The translations under genes were made by a program, and so were the position numbers. Below, in pieces: positions 758 to 55,029 of a stretch of 55,029 nt of DNA. The notes beneath the pieces are model-generated. The model saw nothing but the letters and a program-made list of their open reading frames with translations. It did no database searches and was not told the DNA's origin. Position 1 is the first letter of the stretch. Each line of letters opens with the position of its first letter. Source of the stretch: an uncultured Alphaproteobacteria bacterium. Lineage in GTDB: Bacteria; Pseudomonadota; Alphaproteobacteria; HIMB59; GCA-002718135. Where the stretch lies: assembly GCA_902589095.1 (NCBI GenBank), contig CACIRR010000003.1, positions 1-55,029 on the forward strand, in the 5' to 3' direction.

Positions 758-767
758 ATATAAATAA

Positions 768-2042: not shown

Positions 2043-2048
2043 AAAAAA

Positions 2049-2903
2049 TTAACCTTTTACTGATCCAGCAGTTAAGCCATTAATAACTCTTTCCTGGAAT
2101 AATACAAATACAGTTATACTTGGCAAAATACTAATTACCACTGCAGCAAACATTCCTACATAATCTGAAAAGAATTGATTAGTAAAATAACTTATTCCAA
2201 ATTGAATAGTTCTTATGTCTGTTGAAGATGTCAAAAGCATTGCATAGATAAATTCATTCCAACACAAAATAAATTGAAACGTTCCCGCAGTTGCCAAGCC
2301 TGGCAAAGCTAAAGGTAACATAATCCTAAAATATCTAGCAGCAAAATTACAACCATCTAAAAATGACGCCTCTTCAATTTCCTTGGGTATGGATTTAAAA
2401 AACTCTGTAAGAATAAATGTTGAGACAGGAAGTCCAACAGCACAATAAACTAAAATTAGTCCAAACCTTGTATCATAAAGATTTAAAAAATTAATAATTG
2501 CAAAATAAGGAATTATCAGTGCATTTAATGGAACTAATATACCAGCCGTTATCATTAAAAATAGAACATTCTTTCCCCAAAAAGTATGTCGAGCTATTGC
2601 AAATGCACACATTGATGAAAATAAAATATTTAAGAAGGTTGCACTGGTACTAATTACTAAAGAATTAATTATTAGCTTTCCTAGTCCTGCCTCACGAATA
2701 GCATTAGAATAATTTTGAAATTGAAATACCGCTGGTAGTTTAAATGGGTCATCAAGTAATTCTGCATTAGTTTTCAATGAGGCGAGCACCAACCATAGAA
2801 AAGGAAATACTGCATAAAAGACAAAGGATATTATGATTACCCATTTAAAAATAAAATAAAAGTTTGAAGATAGATCTCTTTGCATTTTAGTTATAGGTTT
2901 CAC
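2049..2903 (-). CDS. Carbohydrate ABC transporter permease (MalG-like)
   Basis: Hydrophobic helices, EAA loop IPKEIEEASFLDG, C-terminal GLTAGSVKG. Confidence 0.92.
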   Translation of the reverse strand: MKPITKMQRDLSSNFYFIFKWVIIISFVFYAVFPFLWLVLASLKTNAELLDDPFKLPAVFQFQNYSNAIREAGLGKLIINSLVISTSATFLNILFSSMCAFAIARHTFWGKNVLFLMITAGILVPLNALIIPYFAIINFLNLYDTRFGLILVYCAVGLPVSTFILTEFFKSIPKEIEEASFLDGCNFAARYFRIMLPLALPGLATAGTFQFILCWNEFIYAMLLTSSTDIRTIQFGISYFTNQFFSDYVGMFAAVVISILPSITVFVLFQERVINGLTAGSVKG

Positions 2904-3759
2904 TTTTTAATAATTTACGAAGTGATAATAAAAGAATAGCACCAATTGCTATCATTATCACTCCTGCGGCATTTCCTCGACCAAGTCTTTGTACTGATAA
3001 TTCATTCCAGATATAAACAACAAGCACTTGTGTTTTATTTGCGGGTCCTCCCGCAGTCATCAAATATACATATTCAAACTGTCTTAAGTTAAATATGACA
3101 GCTAAAATTATACATAGAAAAAAAGTACTTTTAATTAACGGTGCAGTAATATGTAGATCTTTTTGAAATTGGCTAGCTCCATCTATATTAGCTGCATCAT
3201 AATAATCCTCTGAAATGCCCGCAGTTTTTGCAAGCATAATAACCATAAAATATCCAACATAACACAAAGAGAAACCAATTAAGGCTGCATTTGCTGTTCT
3301 TATATTACCAAGCCAGTTGTGATTTTTATAATCAGAAAAACCAATGTAGTCTAACAAGAAATTAACTAAACCATATTCTGCATTGAACATAGCAGCCCAT
3401 AACATAGCTATCGCAGCTGATGACACAACCTGAGGAATAAATAGAACTGTTCTAAATACTTTCCATCCTCTAGACCTATGAGCCAAAAGTAATGCAATTA
3501 TTAGTGCTAAAGGAACAGTAATTAAAGCAGCAGTAAGGCACCAATATAGATTATTGGTTATTGCTCTTACAAAAGATTTTTTATTAAATAATTTAGTGTA
3601 ATTTTCTAGACCAACAAATTCTGCACTAATTCCATCCCAGTTAGTAAAACTTGTAACAAAAAGAAAAAGAATAGGTATGATAAAAAAAAGAAAAAAAAGA
3701 ATAATTGCAGGGGCAATAAATAACAGAAGCCATACAACTTCATCTTTTTTTATTTGCAT
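2887..3759 (-). CDS. Carbohydrate ABC transporter permease (MalF-like)
   Basis: FVGLENY, EAA loop YYDAANIDGA, VYLMTAGGPA. Confidence 0.92.
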   Translation of the reverse strand: MQIKKDEVVWLLLFIAPAIILFFLFFIIPILFLFVTSFTNWDGISAEFVGLENYTKLFNKKSFVRAITNNLYWCLTAALITVPLALIIALLLAHRSRGWKVFRTVLFIPQVVSSAAIAMLWAAMFNAEYGLVNFLLDYIGFSDYKNHNWLGNIRTANAALIGFSLCYVGYFMVIMLAKTAGISEDYYDAANIDGASQFQKDLHITAPLIKSTFFLCIILAVIFNLRQFEYVYLMTAGGPANKTQVLVVYIWNELSVQRLGRGNAAGVIMIAIGAILLLSLRKLLKSETYN

Positions 3760-3769
3760 AAATAGATAA

Positions 3770-3798
3770 AACTATGAGGTAATGAATACCTCATAGTT
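3770..3798 (-). terminator. Stem-loop after the solute-binding protein gene (partial terminator or mRNA stabiliser)
   Basis: AACTATGAGGTA-atgaa-TACCTCATAGTT, perfect 12-bp inverted repeat. Confidence 0.7.
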
Positions 3799-3808
3799 AT
3801 TTAGATTA

Positions 3809-5065
3809 TTATTCGGCGTCTTTTAGCATTTCAACAGCGCCCTCTGGTGTCACTTCACCTAAAGCTAAAGCTGACAATGCTTGTGGAAATTCACTTACAA
3901 TTGGTAAAGAACCCATTCCGTTCATGAATGTTTTAGCTACATAAGGAGCATTTCCTTTTTGCTCATTCATTTCAATGAATAGTCTGTCCATATCGCTAGG
4001 TAAATCAGCCTTTACAATAAACATCGCGCCAGAACTATAAGATAGTCTTGCAACATTTTCTGGAGTTGTTAACCATTTTAAGAATTTTACAACCGCTTCT
4101 TCTTTTGCTGGATCAGATTGTTTACCAGCAGCTAAAGAAGATTGCTTTCCACCAACATAGCCACCTGGAGCACCTTCTCCACCAGTTAGCATTGGAGCTG
4201 GAGCTACACCTATATTTTCATGCAAGCCAGGTATACCATCAGAAGTATAACGAGCGATGAACCAAGGTCCATTCATGAAAACTGCAGTTCTTTCATTTAA
4301 GAAATGTCCACCAGAGACACCCGCATCTGCACCAACTGCATCACTTGTAGTGTATTGATACATTTTTTCCATAACTTCAAAAGCTTTTACAAAAGCAGGA
4401 TCATCAAGTCCTCTCTCATAAACATTTGGTCCACCAGCTGAAGCTAGTGCTTGAGAAAACCACAACATTGAGGTCCAAGCATTTTTAGCTGTCATTTGTG
4501 ACGTACAAACTTTTCCTGTTGCAGTAACAGCTTCGCACATTTTGAAGAATTCATCATACGTAGCAGGAAACTCATCATAACCAGCAGCTTTTAATAATTT
4601 TTTATTATAAGTAACTGGTGTCACAAAAAGTTCATATGGCAGATTAGTTAATTGACCGCCCATCATATTACTTTCAAGAGCTCCTTCTGGGTAAACATTA
4701 TTCCAATGTGAGTCAGAAGCTACATGAGGAGCAAGATCCATTGCCTTGCCACTTCTGTGCAAAATACTCAGTAAGTCTGCGCCAACTGTAAATATATCTG
4801 GCAAATCACCAGTAGATATCTGAGCAGTTAATTTTTGTGCATAAATATCGTAATCAGTTTGTTCCTCTATTACAACTTTTATAGAACCTGAATTTGCAGA
4901 ATTGAATTCATCTACAAGTTCACTAATAACTGTTGACTTTGAGTCTTTTCCAACCCAAATTGATGGCCAGTTAATTGTAATTTCTGCAGAAGCTACTGTC
5001 GAAATTACAGTTAGTGAAGTTGAAATGAAAACTACTGAAAATAATTTTAATATTGATTTAATCAT
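3809..5065 (-). CDS. Sugar ABC transporter solute-binding protein (family 1)
   Basis: Signal peptide ending ASA, GDLPDIF, YNKKLLKAAG, AVFMNGPW; GGAGG RBS upstream; precedes two permeases. Confidence 0.9.
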   Translation of the reverse strand: MIKSILKLFSVVFISTSLTVISTVASAEITINWPSIWVGKDSKSTVISELVDEFNSANSGSIKVVIEEQTDYDIYAQKLTAQISTGDLPDIFTVGADLLSILHRSGKAMDLAPHVASDSHWNNVYPEGALESNMMGGQLTNLPYELFVTPVTYNKKLLKAAGYDEFPATYDEFFKMCEAVTATGKVCTSQMTAKNAWTSMLWFSQALASAGGPNVYERGLDDPAFVKAFEVMEKMYQYTTSDAVGADAGVSGGHFLNERTAVFMNGPWFIARYTSDGIPGLHENIGVAPAPMLTGGEGAPGGYVGGKQSSLAAGKQSDPAKEEAVVKFLKWLTTPENVARLSYSSGAMFIVKADLPSDMDRLFIEMNEQKGNAPYVAKTFMNGMGSLPIVSEFPQALSALALGEVTPEGAVEMLKDAE

Positions 5066-5305: not shown

Positions 5306-6328
5306 ATGAAATCTAGCAATATTGGAAAATTTATACACATTAAAAAATTATGTAACGATCAAGGTCATTTACAAATGCTCGCAATCGATCAAAGACCACC
5401 AATATTTAATTTAATAAAAAATAAAAAAAAGAGATATATCTACAAGGATGTCGTCGATTTTAAAAAACATATATCACTAAGCCTATCTAAGCACTCCACT
5501 GCTATACTAATGGATCCGGTTTATTCAGTGCCTAATTTAATTACTTCAAGTAAAAGTAAAGGCTTGATAGTTACTCTTGAAGATCATGATTTTATTGAAA
5601 AAGATAAAGGTAGATATTCAAAAAATATTAAAAATTGGTCAGTTGAAAAAATAAAAAGAATGGGTGGTGATGCTGTCAAAGTACTAGCTTGGTATCGACC
5701 TGATGCTGATGAAAAATCTATTGAACATCAAAAAAAATATATAGCAACAATAGGCAGGGAATGTCAAAAATATGATATTCCTTTTTTATTAGAACTATTG
5801 GTTTATCCATTTAAAAATGAAATTGGATATTCAAAAGACTATAAAGAGCAACTATATAAAAATCACAATCATGTAATTGATAGTGTGAAAGAATTTTCTA
5901 AAGCAAAATACAAAGTTGATATTTTTAAATTAGAAAGTCCTGTAGATAGTAACCAATTACAAAATAGTAAATTCACTAAAGCTACAGAAGATGCTTTCAA
6001 AGAATTGTCTAAGGCAACAAGAAATATTCCATGGGTAATGCTTTCCTCCGGGATGAGTAAGAATTCTTTTTTTAATTGCTTAAAATTAGCTTATAAAAAT
6101 GGTGCCTCGGGATATCTTGCGGGCAGAACTATTTGGCTAGATGCTTTTAAAGATTATCCAAATTATAAAAAAATAATAACAAAGCTTAATAAGGAAAGTC
6201 TAAGTTATGTTAAAAAATTAAATGAACTTACGAATAAAAACGCTCTATCTTTAGAAAAATTTTTAACACAAAAACTAATCCAAAAAAACGCTGCAAATTT
6301 TAAAGCTATTTATAAAGGCTTTCGATGA
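5306..6328 (+). CDS. Class I aldolase of the LacD/YihT family (tagatose-1,6-bisphosphate or sulfofructose-1-phosphate aldolase)
   Basis: MLAIDQR, AVKVL, PFLLE, DIFKLE (Schiff-base Lys), WVMLSSG, GASGYLAGR. Confidence 0.85.
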   Translation: MKSSNIGKFIHIKKLCNDQGHLQMLAIDQRPPIFNLIKNKKKRYIYKDVVDFKKHISLSLSKHSTAILMDPVYSVPNLITSSKSKGLIVTLEDHDFIEKDKGRYSKNIKNWSVEKIKRMGGDAVKVLAWYRPDADEKSIEHQKKYIATIGRECQKYDIPFLLELLVYPFKNEIGYSKDYKEQLYKNHNHVIDSVKEFSKAKYKVDIFKLESPVDSNQLQNSKFTKATEDAFKELSKATRNIPWVMLSSGMSKNSFFNCLKLAYKNGASGYLAGRTIWLDAFKDYPNYKKIITKLNKESLSYVKKLNELTNKNALSLEKFLTQKLIQKNAANFKAIYKGFR

Positions 6329-7701
6329 TTGGGTGCTTTAGTTTAGCAAGAGAAACTTTTGATATTAAATTTGCCAAGAAAAAATTAGCAACAACCAAAA
6401 GAATAATAAAAAAATTAAATAAAAATATAAATTTTTTTGATGAGTTAATAACTAATGATGAAATTGGAAAAAGCGCTTTAAAACACTTTGAAAATATTAA
6501 ATGCACAAAGTTTATAGTTATTCAATCAACTTTTACTGATGCAAAATTTATTTCTTCTTTTGTTAAGAAATTTAAAAAACCTGTATTATTTATTTCATTT
6601 AAAGAAAAAAGATCGGGCGGACGCTTAAGATTGAATTCACTTTGTGGAGTAAATTTAGGATTACATGCATTAATTAAAAGTAAATTTTATTCTAATTTTA
6701 TAATTTTCAAGACTGAGGAGCGATCTTTTTCAAATGAAATATTAAAATTTATTAAAAATAAGAATAATTTTACTAAAAAAAATTATTTGAGAAAAATAAA
6801 TTCAAAAAATATTAATAATAGAATTATCAATTTTAAAAAACCACAGTTAGGGCTGATCGGTGAAAGGCCAGAAGGCTTTGATACTTGTGATTTTAATAAT
6901 GAAGATTTAAAATCCAAGTTTAATGCCAAAATAAAAAAGATAAAATTGCAAAATTTATTTAATATTTCAAGCAAGGTTGATAAAAAAATAATCAATGCAA
7001 CAAAGAAAAATATAAGCAAAAAACTTAAACATATAAATCAAGTAAACCAAAAAGAACTGAATAAAAGTATATCTCTATTCCATGGTCTTAAACAAGTTCA
7101 ACAAAAACAAAATATTGATGCATTTGCAGTTCGTTGTTGGCCTGAAATGTTCACAGAGTATGGTTGTGCTTCATGTGGACCAATGGCTATGATGAATGAA
7201 AATAAAATAAGCTCTGCTTGTGAAGCTGATGTACTTGGAAGCTTAACATGCAACATTTTAAATCAATTAAATAACAAGCCAGCTTTATTAGTCGATATTG
7301 TCGATGTGGATGACAGAGATAATACCACTGTTTTTTGGCATTGTGGACTAGCCCCTATAAGTATGGCAGAGAAAAATACACCCAGTGCCACAGTTCACTC
7401 TAATAGAAGAAAGCCTCTTCTGCATAACTTTGCGCTTAAGTCAGGTGATATAACAATTTTTCGTGTTTCAAAATCAGAAAATAAATTAAAATTTATAGTA
7501 ATGAATGGAACAGTGCTTAAAAGAAAAAATTCTTTTTCTGGAACTTCAGGAGTAATAAGTTTAGGTAAAAATACACACAACAAAATAAAAAATTTATTTT
7601 TAAGCGGTTTAGAACATCATGTAGGGTTTACTTATGGAAATGTGCTTGAAGATATTAAAAGCTTAGGAAAGCAGTTAAGAATACCTACATATACAATATG
7701 A
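6325..7701 (+). CDS. L-fucose/L-arabinose isomerase-family protein; candidate sulfoquinovose isomerase (SqvD/SftI type)
   Basis: RLNSLCG, AVRCWPE, ACEADVLG, FWHCG, GLEHH; ATGA overlap with the aldolase gene. Confidence 0.8.
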   Translation: MIGCFSLARETFDIKFAKKKLATTKRIIKKLNKNINFFDELITNDEIGKSALKHFENIKCTKFIVIQSTFTDAKFISSFVKKFKKPVLFISFKEKRSGGRLRLNSLCGVNLGLHALIKSKFYSNFIIFKTEERSFSNEILKFIKNKNNFTKKNYLRKINSKNINNRIINFKKPQLGLIGERPEGFDTCDFNNEDLKSKFNAKIKKIKLQNLFNISSKVDKKIINATKKNISKKLKHINQVNQKELNKSISLFHGLKQVQQKQNIDAFAVRCWPEMFTEYGCASCGPMAMMNENKISSACEADVLGSLTCNILNQLNNKPALLVDIVDVDDRDNTTVFWHCGLAPISMAEKNTPSATVHSNRRKPLLHNFALKSGDITIFRVSKSENKLKFIVMNGTVLKRKNSFSGTSGVISLGKNTHNKIKNLFLSGLEHHVGFTYGNVLEDIKSLGKQLRIPTYTI

Positions 7702-8786
7702 ACGCAACTACAAAATATGGAATTATTGGAACTGGTGTAATGGGCCAAGAACATATTCAAAATATAAATATAATTGAAAATGCAGAAGTAGTAGCAATTT
7801 GTGATACTAATGAAGGCTCTAAAAACAAGGCCAAGTCATTAGTCAAAGAGTCAACAATATTTTATAATAATTTAAATGAATTAATAAGTGCAAATACTGC
7901 AGATGCTTATATTATTGCTACACCCAATTATACACATATAGATGTATTAGAACAAATATTAGTAACAAACAAACATTTGTTAGTTGAAAAACCATTGTGC
8001 ACAACGACTGAAGATTGTAAAAAATTTGAGCTACTTTCAAAAGATTATTCAAAGATAATTTGGACTGGAATGGAATATAGATATATGCCACCTGTAAAAC
8101 GTTTGATTGATGAAGTTCATAATAATGTCATTGGTAATATTAAAATGTTATCAATACGTGAACATCGATTTCCTTTTTTACACAAAGTTGATGATTGGAA
8201 TAGATTTGCTATTAACACAGGAGGTACATTAGTTGAAAAATGTTGTCACTTCTTTGACTTGATGCGACTCGTTATTCAAAGTGAGCCAATCAAAGTTTAT
8301 GCAAGCGGAAATCAAGATGTTAATCATTTGGATGAAAAATATGATGGTAAAACTCCAGATATTATAGACAATGCATATGTAATTGTTGATTTTGAAAACG
8401 GTGCACGAGCAATGCTTGATTTATGTATGTTTGCAGAAAATTCAGAATACCAAGAAGAAATAGTGGCTGTTGGTGACCTAGGAAAAGTTGAAACATTTGT
8501 TCCGTCCAGTGCTTCAGGTAAAGACTCTTCAGAAGTTATAATTGGTATACGAAAAGATAATGTTGTTAAATCAACAGAAATAAAAGTTGATAAGGAAATT
8601 TTATTAGCAGGTCATCATCACGGTTCAACTTATTATGAACATTTAGCATTTATAAATGCTATTCAAAAAAATGAAAAACCTGAAGTATCTTTAAGAGATG
8701 GATTAATGTCAGTAGCTATTGGTGAGGCAGCTGAAAACTCTATCAAAGAAAACAGAGTTGTATTTATGAAAGAATTTAATTTATAA
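7698..8786 (+). CDS. sqgA: Gfo/Idh/MocA protein resembling NAD+-dependent sulfoquinovosidase (GH188)
   Basis: GIIGTGVMG, EKPL, GMEYRY, EHRFPFLHKVDDWNRF, GGTLVEKCCHFFDL, GHHHGSTYYEH; sulfoglycolytic context. Confidence 0.7.
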   Translation: MNATTKYGIIGTGVMGQEHIQNINIIENAEVVAICDTNEGSKNKAKSLVKESTIFYNNLNELISANTADAYIIATPNYTHIDVLEQILVTNKHLLVEKPLCTTTEDCKKFELLSKDYSKIIWTGMEYRYMPPVKRLIDEVHNNVIGNIKMLSIREHRFPFLHKVDDWNRFAINTGGTLVEKCCHFFDLMRLVIQSEPIKVYASGNQDVNHLDEKYDGKTPDIIDNAYVIVDFENGARAMLDLCMFAENSEYQEEIVAVGDLGKVETFVPSSASGKDSSEVIIGIRKDNVVKSTEIKVDKEILLAGHHHGSTYYEHLAFINAIQKNEKPEVSLRDGLMSVAIGEAAENSIKENRVVFMKEFNL

Positions 8787-9704
8787 ATTGAAAAATTCTT
8801 TTGCAGTTTTAGCTATAAATTCACTTACTCTTTTGTTAGACTCTTCAGTCACTCCTGCAACATGGGGACTGAGTATGCAATTTGTATTTTTTTTAACTTT
8901 TTCTAAAAAAGCTTTAGGTACAGGTTCTGTATTGTAAACATCAAGTGCAAATCCTGAAATCAGCTTTTCTTCATAGGCTCTTAATAAATCTTGTTCGTTA
9001 ACGATAGAACCTCGTGACGAATTAATGATAATAGGCTGTTTTACCATTTTCTTGAAAGTATTATAATTTAATAAATTTTTAGTATTTTCAGTGAGAGGTA
9101 AGTGAATTGAAATTACATCTGACATTCTAAAAACATCATTTATATCAATTAATTTTGTATCAAATTGATTACCAACACTTGGATCAAGATATGGATCGTA
9201 GGCAATTATTTTTGCTTCAAAAACTTTAGCTAGGGTAGATACTTTTTTTGCAATTAAACCAAAACCAAGCAAACCAATTGTCTTGCCCCTAAGTTCTCTT
9301 GAACTAATTGAGGTTCGAGGCCAATTTCCAATCAAAGTTTCTTGGTGCATTAAAGGAATATTTTTTAACAAGGTAAGAGCTGCATTAATAACATATTCAG
9401 CAACGGAGTCAGCATTCATACCTGTAGCTGGTTGCACATGAATATTATGATTTTTACAATATACGGTATCTATATTATCAAGACCAACACCCAAACGCCC
9501 AACAAATTTTAGATTATTCGCCTTATCAAGAACTTCTTTAGTAACTTGTGTTTTATTTCTTACAATTAAAGCATCAAAACTATTAATTATTTTTTTTAAT
9601 TCAGTATTATTAGTTGAAAGATCATGATCTACCGTAACCTCAAAATTAGTTTTTAGTAGCTCAACATATTCGACATCCATAAATTCAGTTATCAAAATTT
9701 TCAT
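8781..9704 (-). CDS. slcC: D-2-hydroxyacid dehydrogenase, (S)-sulfolactate dehydrogenase-like
   Basis: ILITEFMD N-terminus, LIVRNKTQV, GRLGVGLDNID, PATGMNADSVAEY, PHVAGVTEESNKRVS; same operon as comDE. Confidence 0.75.
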   Translation of the reverse strand: MKILITEFMDVEYVELLKTNFEVTVDHDLSTNNTELKKIINSFDALIVRNKTQVTKEVLDKANNLKFVGRLGVGLDNIDTVYCKNHNIHVQPATGMNADSVAEYVINAALTLLKNIPLMHQETLIGNWPRTSISSRELRGKTIGLLGFGLIAKKVSTLAKVFEAKIIAYDPYLDPSVGNQFDTKLIDINDVFRMSDVISIHLPLTENTKNLLNYNTFKKMVKQPIIINSSRGSIVNEQDLLRAYEEKLISGFALDVYNTEPVPKAFLEKVKKNTNCILSPHVAGVTEESNKRVSEFIAKTAKEFFNL

Positions 9705-9708
9705 AAAA

Positions 9709-10614
9709 CTATATTTCCTTTAATTGTATTTTTTTTACAAATTTTTTAACAGATGAAAGATTAGGTAATGAATAAATTCCACCATTTTTTGTGCACTTTA
9801 AGGAAGCTGTGGCTGTTGCAAGTTTCATAGCATTTTGTACAGAGTGCTTTTGATGAATAAAGGCTGCAAAACCTCCATGAAATACATCACCTGCACAATT
9901 TGTTTCAACAACTTTAATTTTAGGAGGTTTGCAATTAAAAATTAAACCATTTTCAATCCAATACACACCTTTTTCACCAGCCGTTATTGCATAAAATTTA
10001 TTTTTTATTGAATACATTTTCTTTAATGACCCAACAATTGATTTAATTTTTGTATATTCAAATGCACCTGTCTCAGAAAAGATAAGATGGGAAGATAAAT
10101 GAATTATTTGTTTGATTTTTTTGTTTAATTTATAATTATCAAGATCGACAATATGATTTAGATTATTTTTATTACAATTTTTGGCAATATAGAGGGTTGC
10201 TTCAACCCATCTTAGATCAGACATGATTGTCGTATTTTTTTTAAATACAATTTTAGGTAATTTTTTATTATTTAATAATTTTTTTTCACTAAAAGCAGCA
10301 AGAAGTCTTTCGCCTTGCTTATCTTCGTAAACAAAACTTTGTGATGATTTAACCCCTTTAATCTCAAGAATGTTATTATGTTTAATTTTAAATTTTTTTA
10401 ATTCATTTTTTAAAAATTTTGAGGCATCATCATTTCCAAGTCTTCCAATAAATGAAGTATTTATTCCAAGTTTTTTAATAGTAAAACTAGCAACAGCTGC
10501 AGATCCTCCAAGTCTTTTTTCTATCCCTTGGGCAAGTACTTTAATAGGTTTTTTGGGGAAACTATCAATTTTAACAATATGATCTAAAAAAACTGACCCT
10601 ACACAAATAATCAT
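9709..10614 (-). CDS. PfkB/ribokinase-family sugar kinase; candidate sulfofructose kinase (YihV-like)
   Basis: GGSAAVAS, GRLGNDD, DLRW, VETNCAGDVFHGGF. Confidence 0.8.
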   Translation of the reverse strand: MIICVGSVFLDHIVKIDSFPKKPIKVLAQGIEKRLGGSAAVASFTIKKLGINTSFIGRLGNDDASKFLKNELKKFKIKHNNILEIKGVKSSQSFVYEDKQGERLLAAFSEKKLLNNKKLPKIVFKKNTTIMSDLRWVEATLYIAKNCNKNNLNHIVDLDNYKLNKKIKQIIHLSSHLIFSETGAFEYTKIKSIVGSLKKMYSIKNKFYAITAGEKGVYWIENGLIFNCKPPKIKVVETNCAGDVFHGGFAAFIHQKHSVQNAMKLATATASLKCTKNGGIYSLPNLSSVKKFVKKIQLKEI

Positions 10615-10635
10615 ATTAAAATTATATATTAAAAA

Positions 10636-11205
10636 TTAGAGGTAAGAAACTAAACCTATAGATTTTCTAAATCGATCCCTAATAGTAACAGCATTCAGTG
10701 GTATTGGCTTTATTGGCACATTACCTGATTGTATTTTAGAAATAATGACATACGAGTTATCTTTATCAGCTAATGCCTTTTTTAAATTTCCATCTGTTTC
10801 TTCCCCAGAACACTCTATAACATTTTTACATCCAGCTCCAATAGCAACCTCTTTTAATGAGGTACGTTCATTCGTAAAAGTTTTTTGATCGCCAGTAGAA
10901 CCATAAGAGCCGTTATCAACTATGAGAAGAGTATAATTTGAAGGTGCTCTATTACCTATAGTTGCAAGGGTATTCATATTCATTAAAACCGACCCATCAC
11001 CATCAATACTAATCACATTTTTATCAACTGTTAAAGATAATCCTAAACCAATTGATGATGCTAAACCCATACTTCCTAGCATGTAAAAATAATTTGGGCG
11101 GTCATTAAGTTTATATAATTCTTGTGAAGGAAGTCCAATGTTGCAAATAACTAATTCGTCTTGAATTGTTTTTTTCAACAGGTTTAATAATTCAAATCTA
11201 TTCAT
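10636..11205 (-). CDS. comE: Sulfopyruvate decarboxylase beta subunit
   Basis: CNIGLPSQEL, FYMLGSMGLASSIGLG, TPP-binding DGDGSVLMN...DNGSYGSTGDQ. Confidence 0.9.
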   Translation of the reverse strand: MNRFELLNLLKKTIQDELVICNIGLPSQELYKLNDRPNYFYMLGSMGLASSIGLGLSLTVDKNVISIDGDGSVLMNMNTLATIGNRAPSNYTLLIVDNGSYGSTGDQKTFTNERTSLKEVAIGAGCKNVIECSGEETDGNLKKALADKDNSYVIISKIQSGNVPIKPIPLNAVTIRDRFRKSIGLVSYL

Positions 11206-11207
11206 CT

Positions 11208-11705
11208 CTAGTCATCCTTCATTAAATTAAAATTACAAAGTACAGCGACAGGACTTTCAATTACTTTTGCATGATTAGTAAAGGTAGATATTTTATCAAG
11301 ATCATCTTCAGTGTTACAATGAAGCATAGGTATGCGAAGGGTATTCAATATATCTTCAGTAACACTTGCCATTCCACCCTGAGCTCCAACTGGCTCTCCA
11401 GGAGTGCCTCGATAACTTATCAAGAAAACAACTGGCATTTGGTATAGTTGCAAAAGAGAAACAATAGAATTGACAGAATTACCAATTCCAGTGTTTTGCA
11501 TCATTATACATGGAAGTTTATTCCCTAAATACGCACCGGCACAAATACCCATTCCTTCTTCTTCTCTTGGAATAGCTGAGTAATAAATATCTTTATCATT
11601 CTCTAAAATGGTGATCATATTTGCTAGAAGTTTACATGGAACACTTAAGAAAAAATCTGCTCCACCTTCTTTTAAATTTGTAATAATTTTTTGGCTTATT
11701 TTCAT
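11208..11705 (-). CDS. comD: Sulfopyruvate decarboxylase alpha subunit
   Basis: SVPCKLL, REEEGMGICAGAYL, MQNTGIGNSVN, ISYRG; ATG at 11705 preferred to 11735. Confidence 0.9.
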   Translation of the reverse strand: MKISQKIITNLKEGGADFFLSVPCKLLANMITILENDKDIYYSAIPREEEGMGICAGAYLGNKLPCIMMQNTGIGNSVNSIVSLLQLYQMPVVFLISYRGTPGEPVGAQGGMASVTEDILNTLRIPMLHCNTEDDLDKISTFTNHAKVIESPVAVLCNFNLMKDD

Positions 11706-11754
11706 TTTGTAAGAGTAATACTTCAATAAAACCATAAGACAAGATTTTATTTTT

Positions 11755-12804
11755 TTAAAAATCGTTACGTAATTTAATTTTTATCTTTGATAAATAATTT
11801 TTATTTTTTCTTAGGACAGGAGATGGAAAATTAGATTGATTTATTGCATCTGGGTAGTTTTGTGGCTCTAAACACACTCCATACTGAATTCCATATGATT
11901 TATTATGCTTACCTAAATACTTCTCCAACATCATATTTCCTGTATAAAATTGAATTCCTTGCTGATTAGTAAAATACTCAACTCCCATTTTAGTTTTTTT
12001 ACTATAAATTTTTGCAACTGGAGCCTCCATCGATTGATTATCTAAAGCATAATTGTGATCAATTCCTCCAGAATTAAGAAACTCTCTATCTATTGTATTA
12101 GATTTTCTTAAATCAAATTTTGTACCAGATACATTTAATAGCTTCCCAGTTGGTATAGACTCTTCATCGGTCTCGCATATTGCGTCGGAGTATATTTGCA
12201 CAACATGATCTTCATTATTTTGATAATGATCACGGTGTCCATGAAAATTCCAGTAATTATGATTGGTAATGTTAACTATTGTATCTTGATCTGTTGTTGC
12301 ATGAAATTCAATAGAAAGTTCATTATGATTATTTAATTCATAAATTACTTTGCAATCAAGATTTCCAGGATAATTTTCTTCCATATCAGGTGAAAGATAC
12401 CTCAAGACACATTTTGTAGAGTCATCTTTTTTTTCAATATTATCAATTTTCCAAATTTTTTTATTAAAACCAGTTTTTCCTCCATGCAGATGATTTGGGG
12501 GAGTATTTGAAAATAGTTTATAGTTTTTATCACCTAATGAAAACTGAGCACCTCCTATTCTATTAGCTACTCTTCCAACTATAGAATTAAAATACCCATT
12601 TGAATTTAGAACACCATCAACATCTCCATAACCTAGAAGAACATCCTCTGTTTTATTTTCACTGTTAAGATATGGAATATTTACTTCATGAATGTATCCC
12701 CCATAATTATAAAATTTAAAGCTAAAATTATTATCATTAACTACTTCAACTGACTCGATAGGAAGCGCAGCAGGATTTTCTATTTTGTCTTGGTTAATTT
12801 TCAT
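11755..12804 (-). CDS. galM: Aldose 1-epimerase (mutarotase, GalM family); candidate SQ mutarotase
   Basis: VGRVANRI, HLHGG, YPGNL, TNHNYWN, IDHNY, IQFYTGN, CLEPQNYPDA. Confidence 0.88.
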   Translation of the reverse strand: MKINQDKIENPAALPIESVEVVNDNNFSFKFYNYGGYIHEVNIPYLNSENKTEDVLLGYGDVDGVLNSNGYFNSIVGRVANRIGGAQFSLGDKNYKLFSNTPPNHLHGGKTGFNKKIWKIDNIEKKDDSTKCVLRYLSPDMEENYPGNLDCKVIYELNNHNELSIEFHATTDQDTIVNITNHNYWNFHGHRDHYQNNEDHVVQIYSDAICETDEESIPTGKLLNVSGTKFDLRKSNTIDREFLNSGGIDHNYALDNQSMEAPVAKIYSKKTKMGVEYFTNQQGIQFYTGNMMLEKYLGKHNKSYGIQYGVCLEPQNYPDAINQSNFPSPVLRKNKNYLSKIKIKLRNDF

Positions 12805-13703: not shown

Positions 13704-13707
13704 TTAG

Positions 13708-15683: not shown

Positions 15684-15689
15684 AGAATA

Positions 15690-25783: not shown

Positions 25784-26899
25784 TTAATTTATTGCTGTGC
25801 TTGGATCAACAAAATTATAACCCAAATCTTCTGCTACAGCCTTATAAGTAACATTTCCTTGGCAAACATTTAAACCGGCAAGAAAATTGGCATCACTATT
25901 TAAAGCATCTCGATAGCCATTTTGAGCTAAATGCAATACAAAAGGAAGTGTTGCTGCATTCAAAGCGAGAGTGGAAGTTCTTGGAACTCCTCCTGGCATA
26001 TTAGCAACACAGTAATGAACGACATCATCGATAACATAAGTAGGGTCAGCATGGGTTGTTGGTTTACTTGTTTCTACACATCCACCTTGATCGATAGCAA
26101 CATCAACAATGACAGAACCTCTCTTCATGACCTTAAGCATATCTTTTGTAATTAATTTAGGAGCATTGGCACCTGGAATTAAAACACCACCAATAAGTAA
26201 ATCAGTTTCAGCAACATAATCTTCTAAATTTATATCGTCTGAAACAAGTGGGATGATACGATCACCAAACTTTGCTTGCAGTTCTTTTAAGCGAGCTTCA
26301 GATTTATCAACAATATGGACTTTCGCTTCCATTCCCGTTGCAATGGTAGCTGCATTTTCACCAACAACGCCGCCGCCTAATATAAGAACATTACCAGGGT
26401 TTACGCCAGGAGCTCCGCCAATAAGTAAACCTCTTCCACCTTGAGGTTTTTCTAAGCTATGTGCTCCAGCTTGAATTGACATTCTGCCTGCAACTGCACT
26501 CATAGGGGCCAATAAAGGAAGTCTATTATTTTCATCAGTAACAGTCTCATAAGCAATACAAATTGATTTTGAGTCAACTAAACCTTTTGTCAATTCAGGG
26601 GCAGCGGATAAATGTAGATAGGTAAATAAGATTTGATTTTCTCTTAACATATTTACCTCTGCAGATTGAGGCTCTTTAACTTTTACAATCATATCTGAGT
26701 CGTTAAAAACATCAGCAGCGCTAGAAGCTATTTTGGCACCAGCTTTTTCATAGTCAGCATTTTCAAAACCAGCTCCAAAGCCAGCATTGTTCTCAACTAG
26801 GACTTCATGCCCATGATTGGTTAGCTGCTGAACACTCTGAGGTGTAAGCCCAACTCGAGACTCTTGAGCCTTAATCTCAGATGGAATACCAATTTTCAT
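25784..26899 (-). CDS. ald: Alanine dehydrogenase
   Basis: MKIGIPSEIK..ESRVGLTP, KVKEP, FTYLHL, LPLLAPMSAVAGR, DVAIDQGGC, HYCVANMPG. Confidence 0.95.
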   Translation of the reverse strand: MKIGIPSEIKAQESRVGLTPQSVQQLTNHGHEVLVENNAGFGAGFENADYEKAGAKIASSAADVFNDSDMIVKVKEPQSAEVNMLRENQILFTYLHLSAAPELTKGLVDSKSICIAYETVTDENNRLPLLAPMSAVAGRMSIQAGAHSLEKPQGGRGLLIGGAPGVNPGNVLILGGGVVGENAATIATGMEAKVHIVDKSEARLKELQAKFGDRIIPLVSDDINLEDYVAETDLLIGGVLIPGANAPKLITKDMLKVMKRGSVIVDVAIDQGGCVETSKPTTHADPTYVIDDVVHYCVANMPGGVPRTSTLALNAATLPFVLHLAQNGYRDALNSDANFLAGLNVCQGNVTYKAVAEDLGYNFVDPSTAIN

Positions 26900-28239
26900 T
26901 ATTGTTCCTTGAAGTAATTAGTAATTCCTGTTCGGAGTTTCTCAATCATTTCATCAATATGTTTTTTTTCTGAAATAAAAGGTGGAGCAACAATTAAACA
27001 ATCGCCAGTAGCCTTTAAACTTAATCCTGAAGCAAACAGATGTTTAAAGCAAGCATACCCAGCTTTACCCAAACGTTCATCCATTCTTAGATCAATACCA
27101 CCCATCATTCCGTACCCTCTAATATCAACAATGCCCTCAATATCTTTTAAGCTGAATAAGCCGTCTAAGAAATATGGTGACATTTCTTTTGCACGGTTGA
27201 ATAAATCTTCTTTTTCAAAAATATCTTGCATTGCTAGCCCAGCAGCAACTGAACATGGTATTGCTGAGTACGTATATCCATGGAAAAATTCAATAGCTCC
27301 TTTTGGTGCAGCATCAACCATTGAGTCATAAATATGTTCTCGTGATGCCACGGCTCCAAGAGGGACAACACCATTGGTAATTGCTTTTGCCATTGTCATA
27401 ATATCAGGAGTTACATCAAATGCTTGAGCCCCAAATGGTTCACCCATTCTGCCCCAACCAGTTATTACCTCATCAAAAATAAGAAGGATGCCATGTTTAT
27501 CACAAATATCTCTTAATTTTTTTAAATATCCTTTTGGTGGCACTAAAGTTCCAGTAGATCCAGCAACAGGCTCCACAATACATGCAGCAATGTTCTCTCC
27601 ACCAATGTGTCCAGCAATTCTCTCTAAATCTTCAGCTAGGTAATCACCTGTTTCAGGTTCACCGCGAACAAATTTATTTTCCGGTAAGTGCGTGTGACGC
27701 AAGTGATGAGTGTTCGGCATTAATATGCTGGAAAAAGTTTTTCTATTAGCAACCATGCCACCCACTGAAATTCCACCTATGTTCATTCCATGATAACCTC
27801 TTTCACGACCAACAATGTGGTGTCGGTGTCCTTCACCTTTTGCTTTAAAGTAGGCGATGGCAGTTTTGATTGCTGTATCGACTGCGGATGAACCACACAT
27901 AGTAAAAAATATTCTATTTAAATCTTCAGGGGTATGTTTAGAAATTTTTCTTGCTAATTCAAAAGAACCATTAAAGCCTTGTTGAAAAGGTTGCACGTAA
28001 TCAAGTTGTTCGAGCTGTTTATAAACAGCTTCTCTAATTTCCTGACGACCGTGTCCAGCTGGACTACAAAACAATCCTGAACTTGCATCGATCAATTGAT
28101 TGCCGTGATGGTCAGTGTAATACATTCCTTCAGCTTTAACCATCAGCCTTGGATTATCTTTAAAATCGTGATTGGATGTAAATGGCATCCAATGTTCCTC
28201 AAGTGAGTTTGGTAATTCGTTTCTATTTTCTAAATCCAT
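26899..28239 (-). CDS. Class III omega-amino acid:pyruvate aminotransferase (beta-alanine-pyruvate type)
   Basis: HWMPFT, GRERGYHG, IVEPVAGSTG, FDEVITGWGR, PDIMTMAKAIT, FHGYTYS; ATG at 28239. Confidence 0.9.
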   Translation of the reverse strand: MDLENRNELPNSLEEHWMPFTSNHDFKDNPRLMVKAEGMYYTDHHGNQLIDASSGLFCSPAGHGRQEIREAVYKQLEQLDYVQPFQQGFNGSFELARKISKHTPEDLNRIFFTMCGSSAVDTAIKTAIAYFKAKGEGHRHHIVGRERGYHGMNIGGISVGGMVANRKTFSSILMPNTHHLRHTHLPENKFVRGEPETGDYLAEDLERIAGHIGGENIAACIVEPVAGSTGTLVPPKGYLKKLRDICDKHGILLIFDEVITGWGRMGEPFGAQAFDVTPDIMTMAKAITNGVVPLGAVASREHIYDSMVDAAPKGAIEFFHGYTYSAIPCSVAAGLAMQDIFEKEDLFNRAKEMSPYFLDGLFSLKDIEGIVDIRGYGMMGGIDLRMDERLGKAGYACFKHLFASGLSLKATGDCLIVAPPFISEKKHIDEMIEKLRTGITNYFKEQ

Positions 28240-28371
28240 AAATGTCCCCAAATAAGCAAAATTTACCTAGCCTTACATCATACAAATACCTAATCCAAGA
28301 GGAATTCTTGATGTTTTTCTTAATTTCGTAGGAAAAATTGACGCCCTAGTATAGAAGAAAAAAATTCAATT

Positions 28372-29283
28372 ATGCTAAGCAATAAAGAAGCCCAAATCCC
28401 TAATAATTTACTGTCGTTCGCTCAAAAATCACCTAATCTATCGGCAGGTATTATATGTGCACACCACGACTCCTCGATGGAATCAGCAAAAAAATCAGTA
28501 GAACTAAATCTTATAGAGCCAATTTTTATAGGAGATAAAAATGCTATCAATGAAAAGGCATACAAAATTAATTGGGATATAAGTTCTTATAATACCATTC
28601 ATTCATCAACTGATATTGAGGCAGCTACTATTGGGGCTGAATTAGCGAAAGATAATAAAATAAAAATAATGATTAAAGGCAATCTTCATACAGATGTTTT
28701 GATGCGAACGTATTTAAAAAAAGATTTTGGCCTTATTGAAGGAAAGAGATTAAGTCACATTTGGCATATGACAATCGCAAAAAATGATAAACCACTTTTT
28801 ATAACAGATGGTGCATTAAATGTTGCTCCACGCATTGATGTAAAAATGCATATACTAAAAAATGTAATTAACTTTGCTAATCAAATAAATATTGCAAAAC
28901 CAAGAGTTGCTATTCTATCAGGAACAGAGGATCCAATTGACAGTATGCCGAGTTCAATTGAAGCAAAAGAACTGATGGAAAGGGCACAAGAAGAAAATAT
29001 TAATGCATATGTTCACGGCCCCCTAGCCTTTGATAATGCTGTGTCTCCTGATGCTGCGTCAATTAAAAACATTTCAAGTGAAGTTGCAGGAAAAGCAGAT
29101 ATTTTACTCGTACCTAATTTAGAAACAGGTAATTCATTATCTAAAATAATGGTTTATTTTATGAGCGCTTGTGCTGCTGGCTTTATTGTTGGAGGAAAAG
29201 TTCCCGTTGTGGTGACAAGCAGAGCAGATAGTTCTGCTTCACGTATTGCCTCTATAGCTGCTGCTGTTATAGCAACACAGTAG
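28372..29283 (+). CDS. Phosphate acetyl/butyryltransferase (Pta/Ptb family)
   Basis: MIKGNLHTD, RLSHIW, ITDGALNVAP, GPLAFDNAVS, LVPNLETGN, PVVVTSRAD. Confidence 0.88.
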   Translation: MLSNKEAQIPNNLLSFAQKSPNLSAGIICAHHDSSMESAKKSVELNLIEPIFIGDKNAINEKAYKINWDISSYNTIHSSTDIEAATIGAELAKDNKIKIMIKGNLHTDVLMRTYLKKDFGLIEGKRLSHIWHMTIAKNDKPLFITDGALNVAPRIDVKMHILKNVINFANQINIAKPRVAILSGTEDPIDSMPSSIEAKELMERAQEENINAYVHGPLAFDNAVSPDAASIKNISSEVAGKADILLVPNLETGNSLSKIMVYFMSACAAGFIVGGKVPVVVTSRADSSASRIASIAAAVIATQ

Positions 29284-53971: not shown

Positions 53972-55029
53972 ATGAGTGATAGTTTTGATTATATAATTGT
54001 TGGAGCTGGTTCTGCTGGATGCGTACTAGCAAACAGATTGTCAGCCAATCCAAAAATCTCAGTTTTGTTAATTGAAGCAGGAGGAAAAGATACGTATCCA
54101 TGGATACATATACCTGTTGGTTATTACAAAACCATGCATAATCCAAAAACGGATTGGTGTTTCAAAACAGAACCAGATGAGTCCATCAATGGAAGATCAA
54201 TTAATTATCCAAGAGGAAAAACATTAGGGGGCAGTTCGTCAATAAACGGTCTATTGTATATAAGAGGGCAATCAAGAGATTATGATATTTGGCGACAACT
54301 CGGAAACACTGGGTGGGGATGGGAAGATGTACTCCCCTACTTTATTAAATCAGAAAATCAGGAAAGAGGGGCAAATAAGTTTCATGGTGTTGGAGGTCCT
54401 TTATCAGTTTCTGATATTAGAATTAAACTTGATATTTTAGACGAATTCCAAAATGCTGCTGAAGAGATCGGTATACCTAAAATAAAAGATTTTAACACCG
54501 GTGATAATTTTGGATGTGATTATTTTCAAGTGACCGAAAAAAATGGATTACGATGCAGCACTGCCGTTGGTTATTTAAACCCAGCTAAAAAAAGAAAAAA
54601 TTTAAAAATTGTGGTTAAGGCACATGTAAAACAAATTAATTTTGATGGAAAAAAAGCTGTTGGCATTTCCTATTGGCATGACAATCAATTGATATCGGTA
54701 AAAACTAATAAAGAAGTAATATTGTCAGCAGGCGCAATTGGCTCGCCTCATATTTTACAAGCATCAGGAATTGGCAATGAGAACAAATTACATAAATTAG
54801 GCATAAACATGGTTCATCATAATCCAAATGTTGGACAAAATCTTCAAGACCATCTGATGTTAAGACCTGTCTACAAAGTAAAAAATATAAAAACACTAAA
54901 CAAGACTATCAATAGTTTTTTTGGCAAAATGTTAATTGGAATGGAGTTTGTTTTTTTTAGAAAAGGCGTAATGACAATGGGTGCAAGTCAGTTATGTGGT
55001 TTTGCTAAAAGTGACGAGAATAAAGAAAC
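53972..55029 (+). CDS. GMC oxidoreductase (choline dehydrogenase-like), truncated by the window end
   Basis: Translated by hand, absent from the ORF track: MSDSFDYIIVGAGSAGCVLANRLS...LLIEAGG...WIHIPVGY...PRGKTLGGSSSING...ILSAGAIGSPHIL...VGQNLQDH. Confidence 0.92.
   Translation, partial: MSDSFDYIIVGAGSAGCVLANRLSANPKISVLLIEAGGKDTYPWIHIPVGYYKTMHNPKTDWCFKTEPDESINGRSINYPRGKTLGGSSSINGLLYIRGQSRDYDIWRQLGNTGWGWEDVLPYFIKSENQERGANKFHGVGGPLSVSDIRIKLDILDEFQNAAEEIGIPKIKDFNTGDNFGCDYFQVTEKNGLRCSTAVGYLNPAKKRKNLKIVVKAHVKQINFDGKKAVGISYWHDNQLISVKTNKEVILSAGAIGSPHILQASGIGNENKLHKLGINMVHHNPNVGQNLQDHLMLRPVYKVKNIKTLNKTINSFFGKMLIGMEFVFFRKGVMTMGASQLCGFAKSDENKE

What the first reader, a model, noticed from the sequence alone, without database searches (positions are those of the whole stretch)
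8781..11705. Sulfoglycolysis physically coupled to C3-sulfonate breakdown: possible one-cell SQ mineralisation
Known: sulfo-EMP organisms usually excrete DHPS or sulfolactate, and other bacteria degrade it via SlcC -> ComDE -> Xsc -> Pta. Seen: the candidate SF kinase sits between comE and slcC in one operon, and a Pta-family gene lies at 28372. Inference: this cell carries SQ on to sulfoacetaldehyde. Gaps in the window: no sulfolactaldehyde dehydrogenase or reductase and no xsc. HpsN or a gene elsewhere may fill the first gap.
Basis: partly seen in the sequence, partly recalled or inferred. Interest (0 to 1): 0.75.

Follow-up and report, generated by a model that had tools for sequence, protein, structure and literature searches.

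The report
One-cell sulfoquinovose breakdown to sulfite
This small-genome ocean bacterium carries genes for splitting the abundant algal sulfur-sugar sulfoquinovose right beside genes for degrading the sulfur-bearing half, so it likely breaks the sugar down all the way to sulfite in one cell, a job that so far has been shown only as teamwork between different bacteria or by oxygenase enzymes.

Summary
Confirmed: comD-comE-PfkB kinase-slcC-like form one tight minus-strand run, facing an aldolase, an SqvD/SftI-type isomerase and a GH188 sulfoquinovosidase with all 8 active-site residues. The kinase abuts comE in 62 of 62 kinase-bearing relatives. xsc is absent from this 67%-complete assembly, but in the close relative G020 it ends about 550 bp past the point where this contig stops. 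A tauE-soeABC-like sulfite module lies on contig C9. In a second alphaproteobacterial family, 5 of 21 clusters examined hold the route as one nine-gene operon, including a GabD aldehyde dehydrogenase; all five genomes have xsc. Best reading (about 0.62): SQ to sulfolactaldehyde, S-sulfolactate, sulfopyruvate, sulfoacetaldehyde, then acetyl-phosphate plus sulfite. Weak points: no dedicated sulfolactaldehyde dehydrogenase here (a housekeeping GabD is the candidate; HpsN is unlikely); the aldolase ortholog is in only 8 of 62 relatives; a YihU-like reductase could divert flux to DHPS; nothing is assayed. The enzymes are known families; a 2026 review says one-organism, non-oxygenolytic SQ catabolism is undemonstrated. 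The scan found this cluster before in other genomes.

The parts
2049..5065 (-). Carbohydrate ABC importer (binding protein 3809-5065, two permeases), divergent from the aldolase; candidate SQ/SQ-glycerol importer (inferred)
   Evidence: Pfam SBP_bac_1, BPD_transp_1; no sulfoquinovosyl-binding protein named among the 10 PDB hits; relatives have different importers at this spot
5306..6328 (+). Class I (LacD/YihT-type) aldolase, candidate sulfofructose-1-phosphate aldolase
   Evidence: PF01791; best PDB 8TNF, E 7e-77; model matches 8TNF 'sulfohexulose-1-phosphate aldolase', Z 44.2, rmsd 1.9, 316 aligned, above LacD (Z 38.5-40.2) and YihT (Z 32.4-32.7); Lys208, Ser247-Ser248, Arg274 motifs
6325..7701 (+). 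SqvD/SftI-type (PF02952) isomerase, candidate SQ isomerase
   Evidence: only NCBIfam hit is sulfoquinovose isomerase SftI, 300 bits, cut-off 700; PF02952
7698..8786 (+). GH188 NAD+-dependent sulfoquinovosidase (SqgA)
   Evidence: PDB 8QC3/8QC2 E about 3e-111; K98 Y127 R157 L161 K163 E180 H184 H307 match the 8 ArSqgA active-site residues
8781..9704 (-). SlcC-like (S)-sulfolactate dehydrogenase
   Evidence: PF00389+PF02826; best G000 match (39-41%) of the Paracoccus genes beside comC/suyAB or hpsNOP; two 88%-identical homologues labelled (S)-sulfolactate dehydrogenase by JGI
9709..10614 (-). YihV-like PfkB kinase, candidate sulfofructose kinase
   Evidence: best PDB hit E. coli YihV 7AG6, E 1e-39; 6 of 7 substrate-site residues kept, Asn109 replaced by Ala107
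10636..11205 (-). comE, sulfopyruvate decarboxylase beta subunit
   Evidence: TIGR03846 218.2 vs 221.5; 52-55% to annotated comE on Roseobacter-group plasmids
11208..11705 (-). comD, sulfopyruvate decarboxylase alpha subunit (start 11705 fits the 165-aa relative; an upstream ATG at 11735 is also in frame)
   Evidence: TIGR03845 155.3 vs 147.95
11755..12804 (-). Aldose 1-epimerase, candidate SQ mutarotase
   Evidence: PF01263; a homologue sits inside 10 of 20 clusters of family f94 and in G499
25784..29283 (.). ald and omega-aminotransferase (minus strand) divergent from pta (28372-29283, plus): likely taurine/beta-alanine arm that shares Xsc and Pta
   Evidence: the best plasmid hit of Pta (39%) lies in an Azospirillum cluster with a molybdopterin oxidoreductase trio and xsc
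42211..43497 (+). HpsN-like (HisD-fold) dehydrogenase; probably not the S-sulfolactaldehyde oxidant
   Evidence: 525 bits to C. pinatubonensis HpsN vs 248 or less to HisD; His126 position is Asn
53972..55029 (+). GMC oxidoreductase cut by the contig end; in close relatives its 3' end is tail-to-tail with xsc
   Evidence: 352 of 533 aa present, 89% to G020; same order in G020, G068, G076

Best explanation
This locus joins a hybrid sulfoglycolysis gene set to the sulfolactate-sulfopyruvate-sulfoacetaldehyde route, and the cell likely carries sulfoquinovose (SQ) all the way to sulfite. Inferred steps: an ABC importer takes up SQ or SQ-glycerol; GH188 frees SQ; the mutarotase, isomerase, kinase and aldolase give DHAP plus S-sulfolactaldehyde; a GabD encoded elsewhere (C5) probably oxidises it to S-sulfolactate; SlcC gives sulfopyruvate; ComDE gives sulfoacetaldehyde plus CO2; Xsc (in the assembly gap just past the window) gives acetyl-phosphate plus sulfite; Pta gives acetyl-CoA; TauE and a SoeABC-like enzyme export or oxidise sulfite. 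Sulfopyruvate has no stereocentre, so this route needs only the S-specific SlcC and no ComC racemase partner, which fits the gene content. Shown: gene order, family matches, residues, conservation. Inferred: every activity and the flux.
For: Gene order and spacing. GH188 with all 8 residues in the window and in 34 of 34 homologues checked. Kinase best match YihV; aldolase best match a sulfohexulose-1-phosphate aldolase. Kinase in 62 of 89 same-genus genomes, next to comE in 62 of 62; slcC follows the kinase in 13 of the 14 kinase-bearing loci (one is cut by a contig end). xsc over cut-off in 45 of 49 same-genus genomes, in 34 of 37 that have the kinase, on the same contig 18-57 kb away in 21. 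The window's last 7.6 kb are 89% identical to G020 and stop about 550 bp short of xsc; orthologues of the eight genes tested beyond xsc are also missing from G000. G068 and G076 hold aldolase to xsc on one contig in the window's order. Family f94: kinase-aldolase-isomerase-GH188-mutarotase-gabD-slcC-comD-comE as one co-oriented run in 5 of 21 clusters, all five genomes with xsc, about 8-9 kb away in G782. The two clusters with suyAB (L176, L313) also carry comC; the five comDE operons do not. tauE-soeABC-like genes on C9. An unlinked R. pomeroyi GabD oxidises sulfolactaldehyde (PMC11131964, passages).
Against: No activity, growth or expression data. xsc was not seen in G000, and among the 8 relatives with the aldolase ortholog it was found in only 4 (G020, G068, G076, G095; not in G092, G111, G118, G097, 65-84% complete). 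No aldehyde dehydrogenase in the cluster; G000's one GabD is closer to E. coli GabD (683 bits) than to the Rhizobium sulfolactaldehyde dehydrogenase (573), is 50-58% identical to cluster-encoded GabDs and occurs family-wide regardless of SQ genes. The aldolase ortholog is in only 8 of 62 kinase-bearing relatives; 10 more have only a distant paralogue. Kinase Asn109 is Ala. Isomerase and ComE score under their cut-offs. A YihU-like gene on C50 could send sulfolactaldehyde to DHPS. comE occurs without the kinase in 15 genomes, and xsc in genera without it.
Confidence: 0.62

Rival explanations
1. Ordinary two-tier behaviour: the cell does sulfoglycolysis and excretes most of the C3 half (DHPS through the YihU-like gene, or sulfolactate), while ComDE, Xsc and Pta mainly serve imported sulfolactate, DHPS or taurine. 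The genes are neighbours because sulfonate functions collect in one region of a compact genome.
For: comE without kinase in 15 genomes; xsc in 53 of 61 genomes searched, including genera without the kinase; pta beside an aminotransferase and ald; YihU-like gene on C50, best PDB match SLA reductase in the full-length relative; no dedicated SLA dehydrogenase.
Against: The kinase sits between comE and slcC with 21 and 4 bp gaps; slcC accompanies SQ genes in four separate lineages (f1, 16 of 20 f94 clusters, Pseudothioglobus, Marinicaulis); the f94 operon lists gabD-slcC-comD-comE in pathway order directly behind the sulfoglycolysis genes.
Confidence: 0.2
2. The substrate is another 6-sulfo-sugar or its glycoside (for example sulfofucose or sulforhamnose type), with the same C3 half mineralised in the same way.
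For: The aldolase is closer to 8TNF and to tagatose-bisphosphate aldolases than to YihT; 8TNF comes from Paracoccus strain Merri, which grows on sulfofucose and not on SQ (PMC12421959); kinase Asn109 is Ala; importers vary among relatives.
Against: GH188 keeps every SQ-contacting residue including the C4-OH ligand Glu189; the isomerase's only NCBIfam match is SQ isomerase; Merri's EMP-like genes were not induced on sulfofucose.
Confidence: 0.1
3. The route stops short in this organism: it lacks xsc or an enzyme for the sulfolactaldehyde step, and releases a C2 or C3 sulfonate; in aldolase-less relatives the module may be decaying.
For: xsc not in the assembly; found in 4 of 8 aldolase-bearing relatives; aldolase not found in most relatives, including genomes 90-96% complete.
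Against: The gap also removes uvrC, pgsA and other housekeeping genes; kinase, isomerase, GH188 and slcC are intact in aldolase-less genomes, and 4 of 20 f94 clusters also lack the aldolase, which points to a stand-in enzyme rather than decay; no aldehyde dehydrogenase passes the SafD cut-off.
Confidence: 0.08

Closest known systems
Hybrid sulfo-EMP1/2 clusters (Sharma et al. 2023, PMC10665668; E. coli yih, Sharma et al. 2021, PMC8006165)
   Same: Same Pfam mix: PF01263 mutarotase, PF02952 isomerase, PF00294 kinase, PF01791 aldolase; GH188 SQase as in Arthrobacter and Roseobacter-group clusters (Kaur et al. 2023, PMC10755693).
   Different: Known clusters end in YihU or SlaB/GabD and excrete DHPS or sulfolactate; here slcC and comDE share a gene run with the kinase and no SLA enzyme is in the cluster.
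Sulfolactate degradation via SlcC/ComC, ComDE and Xsc (as summarised in Burchill et al. 2024, PMC11382572)
   Same: SlcC-like, ComD, ComE, Xsc (in relatives), Pta, TauE and a Soe-like module.
   Different: Described as a secondary-degrader route fed by imported sulfolactate or DHPS, usually beside hpsNOP or slcD (as on the Alisedimentitalea plasmid); here it is wired to sulfoglycolysis.
Tandem sulfofucolytic ED - SlcC/ComC/SuyAB pathway of Paracoccus wurundjeri Merri (Stewart et al. 2025, PMC12421959)
   Same: One cell splits a sulfo-sugar and releases sulfite; SlcC in the cluster; the SLA dehydrogenase is likewise unidentified.
   Different: Sulfofucose, Entner-Doudoroff chemistry and SuyAB there; SQ, EMP chemistry and ComDE/Xsc here. 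Merri does not grow on SQ.
Ensifer sp. HO-A22, sulfo-ED plus DHPS clusters (Li et al., bioRxiv 10.1101/2023.03.13.532361)
   Same: Genome-based proposal of complete SQ biomineralisation in one organism.
   Different: [quoted passage not shown]
Sulfo-SMO and sulfo-SDO oxygenolytic pathways
   Same: One cell releases sulfite from SQ; often with GH188.
   Different: Those cut the C-S bond of intact SQ with an oxygenase; this route needs no oxygenase and cuts the bond at the C2 stage.

Membership tests
GH188 sulfoquinovosidase (SqgA) | Catalytic and sulfonate residues K107, Y136, R166, L170, K172, E189, H193, H321 | tested here: met
   8 of 8 by motif; same in 34 of 34 homologues
GH188 sulfoquinovosidase (SqgA) | NAD+-dependent hydrolysis of SQ glycosides | not testable with these tools
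   needs an assay
Hybrid sulfo-EMP pathway | SQ isomerase (PF02952 or PF07221) | tested here: inconclusive
   PF02952 hit; NCBIfam SftI 300 bits vs cut-off 700; no PDB sequence match
Hybrid sulfo-EMP pathway | SF kinase with K27-N109-R138 sulfonate pocket | tested here: inconclusive
   K and R kept, N109 is Ala; D13, S95, D162, D244 kept; f94 kinases keep the full triad in 19 of 21
Hybrid sulfo-EMP pathway | SFP aldolase (PF01791) with Schiff-base Lys and Ser-Ser/Arg pocket | tested here: met
   FKLE (K208), LSSG, AGRT motifs; best structural match 8TNF. The Lys and Arg are shared with LacD, so they do not prove the substrate
Hybrid sulfo-EMP pathway | SLA reductase or dehydrogenase in the cluster | tested here: not met
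   none in the window; candidates elsewhere: GabD on C5, YihU-like on C50
SlcC (S)-sulfolactate dehydrogenase | D-2-hydroxyacid dehydrogenase orthologous to slcC of sulfolactate clusters | tested here: inconclusive
   best G000 match of three slcC-position proteins at 39-42%; the tree did not resolve the join with the Paracoccus/Marinicaulis pair; no characterised SlcC sequence was in hand
SlcC (S)-sulfolactate dehydrogenase | Oxidation of S-sulfolactate | not testable with these tools
   needs an assay
ComDE sulfopyruvate decarboxylase | TIGR03845 and TIGR03846 over cut-off; adjacent alpha and beta genes | tested here: inconclusive
   alpha over (155.3/147.95), beta just under (218.2/221.5); relatives G048 and G050 pass; phosphonopyruvate decarboxylase far lower (124.7/312.5)
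Xsc | TIGR03457 over cut-off in this assembly | tested here: not met
   best is a paralogue on C13, 398 vs 676 bits; assembly 66.6% complete, and the true gene lies past the contig end in relatives
HpsN (R-DHPS dehydrogenase) | His126 sulfonate-binding residue | tested here: not met
   Asn at that position in 42211-43497, His in three reference-type proteins
One-cell SQ mineralisation | Sulfite or sulfate release during growth on SQ | not testable with these tools
   needs a culture

The most novel reading that the evidence does not exclude
A non-oxygenolytic, racemase-free route (GH188 + hybrid sulfo-EMP + GabD + SlcC + ComDE + Xsc) mineralises SQ completely inside one cell. It is carried by most of an abundant streamlined open-ocean genus (HIMB59/AEGEAN-169 type) and, as a single nine-gene operon, by members of a second alphaproteobacterial family, making it an overlooked marine SQ sink; most streamlined carriers cleave sulfofructose-1-phosphate with an aldolase not yet recognised.
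Probability: 0.5. Interest if true: 0.8.

Novelty: new variant of a known kind. Interest (0 to 1): 0.64.

Why it matters
SQ is made at about 10 Pg a year (PMC13436972, abstract). [quoted passage not shown] This locus and the nine-gene operon in family f94 are direct counter-candidates, and several of the latter lie in near-complete genomes of few contigs, so the question can be tested. If true, the cell keeps five of six SQ carbons plus the electrons from sulfite, less DHPS and sulfolactate reaches cross-feeders, and marine budgets built on smoC, sqoD and sqgA counts (PMC12780224) miss or misassign a consumer.

Tried and rejected
Xsc-like TPP enzyme on C13 as Xsc: 398 vs 676 bits, 29% to true Xsc, and it co-occurs with true xsc in relatives. 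HpsN as the SLA oxidant: rejected. SuyAB as back end in this lineage: only about 30% UxaA-type hits in G000 (partial) and four relatives, against 67% in Pseudothioglobus. CuyA: TIGR01275 only weak in G000 (E 3e-6), a 210-218-bit homologue under cut-off in 8 of 20 relatives, not followed up. Acetate kinase not found in G000. hpsP not found in G000 with two queries. Phosphonopyruvate decarboxylase reading: scores far lower. Class II aldolases in five aldolase-less genomes lie in housekeeping or iol-like contexts; no SqiA test was made. SlcC tree unresolved at the key node, long branches. Promoter scan: 65 sites against 81.7 expected, uninformative. Public RNA runs hold at most 0.20 of the cluster's words; expression of the cluster stayed unchecked. 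Contigs laid on the relative's xsc-GMC region mix many strains and say nothing about G000. Class-level control: of 8 comE-bearing genomes outside the family among 400, 1 (G499) had SQ genes within about 10 kb and 3 had hps or slcD genes; ORF calling on these GC-rich loci was crude and G268 gave no labels.


Full report
Source. The window is contig C3 of G000 (1.13 Mb, 68 contigs, 66.6% complete), about 32% GC. The same gene order at 69-95% protein identity occurs in the named record MarineAlpha5_Bin5 (L171) and in several named single-cell records. PMC8879329 (passages) groups MarineAlpha5 with HIMB59, and size and GC fit the AEGEAN-169 ranges in PMC10308909 (passages). The lineage is therefore likely HIMB59/AEGEAN-169; this is inferred, I built no marker tree.

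Observation. comD (11705-11208), comE (11205-10636), a PfkB kinase (10614-9709) and a D-2-hydroxyacid dehydrogenase (9704-8781) follow each other on the minus strand with gaps of 2, 21 and 4 bp, behind an aldose epimerase, a DMT permease and an Opp-type importer. No terminator-like site lies between them. Facing them are an aldolase (5306-6328), an isomerase (6325-7701) and a Gfo/Idh/MocA protein (7698-8786), and beyond those a sugar ABC importer.

Identity of the parts. The Gfo/Idh/MocA protein is a GH188 sulfoquinovosidase: E about 3e-111 to PDB 8QC3/8QC2, with all 8 active-site residues named in PMC10755693 (passages), also in 34 of 34 homologues checked. The isomerase's only NCBIfam match is SQ isomerase SftI, at 300 of 700 bits. 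The kinase's best PDB match is E. coli sulfofructose kinase YihV; of the residues named in PMC8006165 (passages) it keeps D13, K27, S95, R138, D162 and D244 but has Ala for N109. The aldolase's best match by sequence and by predicted fold is 8TNF, titled sulfohexulose-1-phosphate aldolase of Paracoccus strain Merri (Z 44.2, rmsd 1.9, 316 aligned), above tagatose-bisphosphate aldolases (Z 38.5-40.2) and YihT (Z 32.4-32.7). ComD passes its model, ComE misses by 3 bits. The dehydrogenase is the best G000 match (39-42%) of proteins in the slcC position of Paracoccus and f94 clusters; a tree did not resolve the join, so SlcC rests on context and similarity. By the Pfam scheme of PMC10665668 (passages) the upper part is a hybrid sulfo-EMP1/2 set.

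Conservation. In 100 family genomes the kinase was found in 62 of 89 of the same genus and 0 of 11 others; comE in 76 of 89 and 1 of 11. The kinase abuts comE in 62 of 62; 15 genomes have comE without it. These are kin, not independent cases. In G045 (another genus) comD-comE-slcC sit with GH188, a GH31 and an importer, with no kinase or isomerase in the 50 kb read.

The xsc gap. G000 has no xsc over cut-off; the C13 hit is a paralogue. xsc passes in 45 of 49 same-genus genomes, in 34 of the 37 with the kinase, and lies on the same contig 18-57 kb away in 21. The window ends inside a GMC oxidoreductase gene. In G020, whose DNA is 89% identical over the window's last 7.6 kb, that gene is tail-to-tail with xsc, about 550 bp past the window's end; orthologues of the eight genes tested beyond xsc (uvrC, pgsA, moaE, proC and others) are also missing from G000. 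G068 and G076 carry aldolase to xsc on one contig in the window's order. Against: among the 8 relatives with the aldolase ortholog, xsc was found in 4 (the four misses are 65-84% complete). Contig C9 has tauE followed by a three-gene molybdopterin oxidoreductase whose large subunit is 60% identical to one beside xsc and pta in Azospirillum; I read it as SoeABC (label recalled). The pta gene is divergent from an omega-aminotransferase and ald, so Xsc and Pta probably also serve taurine.

The sulfolactaldehyde gap. HpsN is specific for R-DHPS and consumed 48% of racemic SLA, while sulfoglycolysis feeds S-SLA to GabD (PMC11382572, passages); the window's HpsN-like protein also lacks His126. Of eight aldehyde dehydrogenases in G000 the GabD on C5 is the best candidate: it keeps the two Arg positions proposed in 10.1101/2023.03.13.532361 (passages), but so do ordinary SSADHs, it scores higher to E. 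coli GabD than to the Rhizobium enzyme, and 36 of 40 family genomes have one such gene whether or not they have SQ genes. Precedent for an unlinked GabD doing the job: R. pomeroyi GabD-2 (PMC11131964, passages). A second cluster (C50) ends in a YihU-like gene cut by the contig end, a possible DHPS outlet.

Independent lineages. A class-wide draw of 400 genomes found comE in 8 outside the family; one, G499, has kinase-aldolase-isomerase-GH188-mutarotase-gabD-slcC-comD-comE as one co-oriented run. In its family f94 (probably Rhodobacteraceae/Roseobacter group, inferred from 83-90% identity of hps proteins to an Alisedimentitalea plasmid) the isomerase occurs in 31 of 401 genomes. I read 20 of the 30 other hits (the best-scoring, leaving out G591 and the 9 weakest): kinase 20, GH188 19, aldolase 16, slcC 16, mutarotase 10, gabD 9, comDE 4, suyAB+comC 1. 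With G499, 5 of 21 have the full nine-gene run; all five have xsc over cut-off, about 8-9 kb away in G782. Their kinases keep K27-N109-R138 in 19 of 21. The Marinicaulis record L176 has gabD-kinase-aldolase-isomerase-GH31 divergent from suyAB-comC-slcC; Pseudothioglobus sp. nBUS_23 has aldolase-isomerase-GH188-kinase-slcC, with suyB and xsc elsewhere and no comE found. So slcC travels with the SQ genes and plugs into either back end, and comC appears in the cluster only with suyAB (2 of 2), as the stereochemistry predicts.

Mechanism (inferred). SQ-glycerol gives SQ, sulfofructose, its 1-phosphate, then DHAP plus S-sulfolactaldehyde; GabD and SlcC give sulfopyruvate; ComDE gives sulfoacetaldehyde; Xsc gives acetyl-phosphate plus sulfite; Pta gives acetyl-CoA; sulfite is exported or oxidised. 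Probability about 0.62. Rivals: excretion with separate use of the lower arm (0.2), another sulfo-sugar (0.1), a route that stops short (0.08).

Unexplained. The aldolase ortholog was found in only 8 of the 62 kinase-bearing relatives; near-complete ones show a single, different PF01791 member, which I take for DeoC. Four of 20 f94 clusters also lack it. A stand-in aldolase is likely but unidentified.

What is known. Sulfoglycolysis with excretion, the SlcC-ComDE-Xsc route and one tandem case for sulfofucose with SuyAB (PMC12421959, first part of the text and passages) are in print; Ensifer HO-A22 is a genomic proposal. PMC13436972 (passages and section 7 part 2) says one-organism SQ catabolism outside the oxygenolytic routes is undemonstrated. 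Searches showed no paper joining sulfo-EMP genes to comDE or naming HIMB59/AEGEAN-169 as an SQ user; passages of PMC13372026, PMC12780224, PMC12890257 and 10.1101/2024.12.10.627767 did not either. The library lacks most subscription papers, I did not read Liu et al. 2023 (ISME J) or any supplement, and the organism lists in the supplements of PMC10755693, PMC10665668, PMC12780224 and PMC13372026 may include these clusters. Earlier agents of this scan reached similar readings on other genomes; that is not independent support.

Verdict. Real and conserved; a new wiring of known enzymes that makes an open question testable. New variant of a known kind; interest 0.64.

Noticed in passing
G000:C50 (L140) and G000:C2 45000-56737 (L246); whole in G022:C7 (L141): Second sugar cluster: SftI-like isomerase paralogue, PDH-E1-like TPP pair, psicose-3-epimerase-like, DhaL/DhaK, LacD-type aldolase, YihU-like reductase, enolase-family dehydratase. 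Possibly a route for another sulfo-sugar.
   Followed up: partly
G000:C13 15843-18721 (L099): Xsc-like TPP enzyme (398 bits) between a luciferase-like monooxygenase and an alpha/beta hydrolase; found beside true xsc in several relatives; function unknown.
   Followed up: partly
window 30210-43497: Cluster of three SnoaL-domain proteins, a cupin, SDR, HAD hydrolase, ABC importer, LacI, MetE-like and the HpsN-like dehydrogenase with Asn for His126; relatives often carry a 47%-identical version that also lacks the His.
   Followed up: partly
window 43494-47065: cysQ-cysD-cysNC (ATP sulfurylase and APS kinase) between the HpsN-like gene and the xsc locus.
   Followed up: no
L176 (Marinicaulis sp. 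OFTM304) 1028-13455: Complete-looking tandem cluster: gabD, kinase, aldolase, isomerase, GH31, divergent from suyA-suyB-comC-yeiH-slcC.
   Followed up: partly
L173 (Pseudothioglobus sp. nBUS_23) 4036-15823: DeoR-aldolase-isomerase-GH188-kinase-slcC with an ABC importer and glycerol kinase; suyB and xsc elsewhere in the genome. A complete genome of a SUP05-type strain that may use SQ.
   Followed up: partly
G045:C2 28001-48000 (L203): comD-comE-slcC with GH188, GH31 and two importers but no kinase or isomerase in the 50 kb read.
   Followed up: partly
window 68-2042 and 20183-21712: Two sulfatase-family genes and a formylglycine-generating-enzyme-like gene flank the SQ genes and the Opp importer; relatives swap them for uronate-type or GH31 genes.
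   Followed up: no
G000:C12 (L007): Phosphonoacetaldehyde dehydrogenase over cut-off, beside a probable phosphonoacetate hydrolase (label recalled): a phosphonate route.
   Followed up: no
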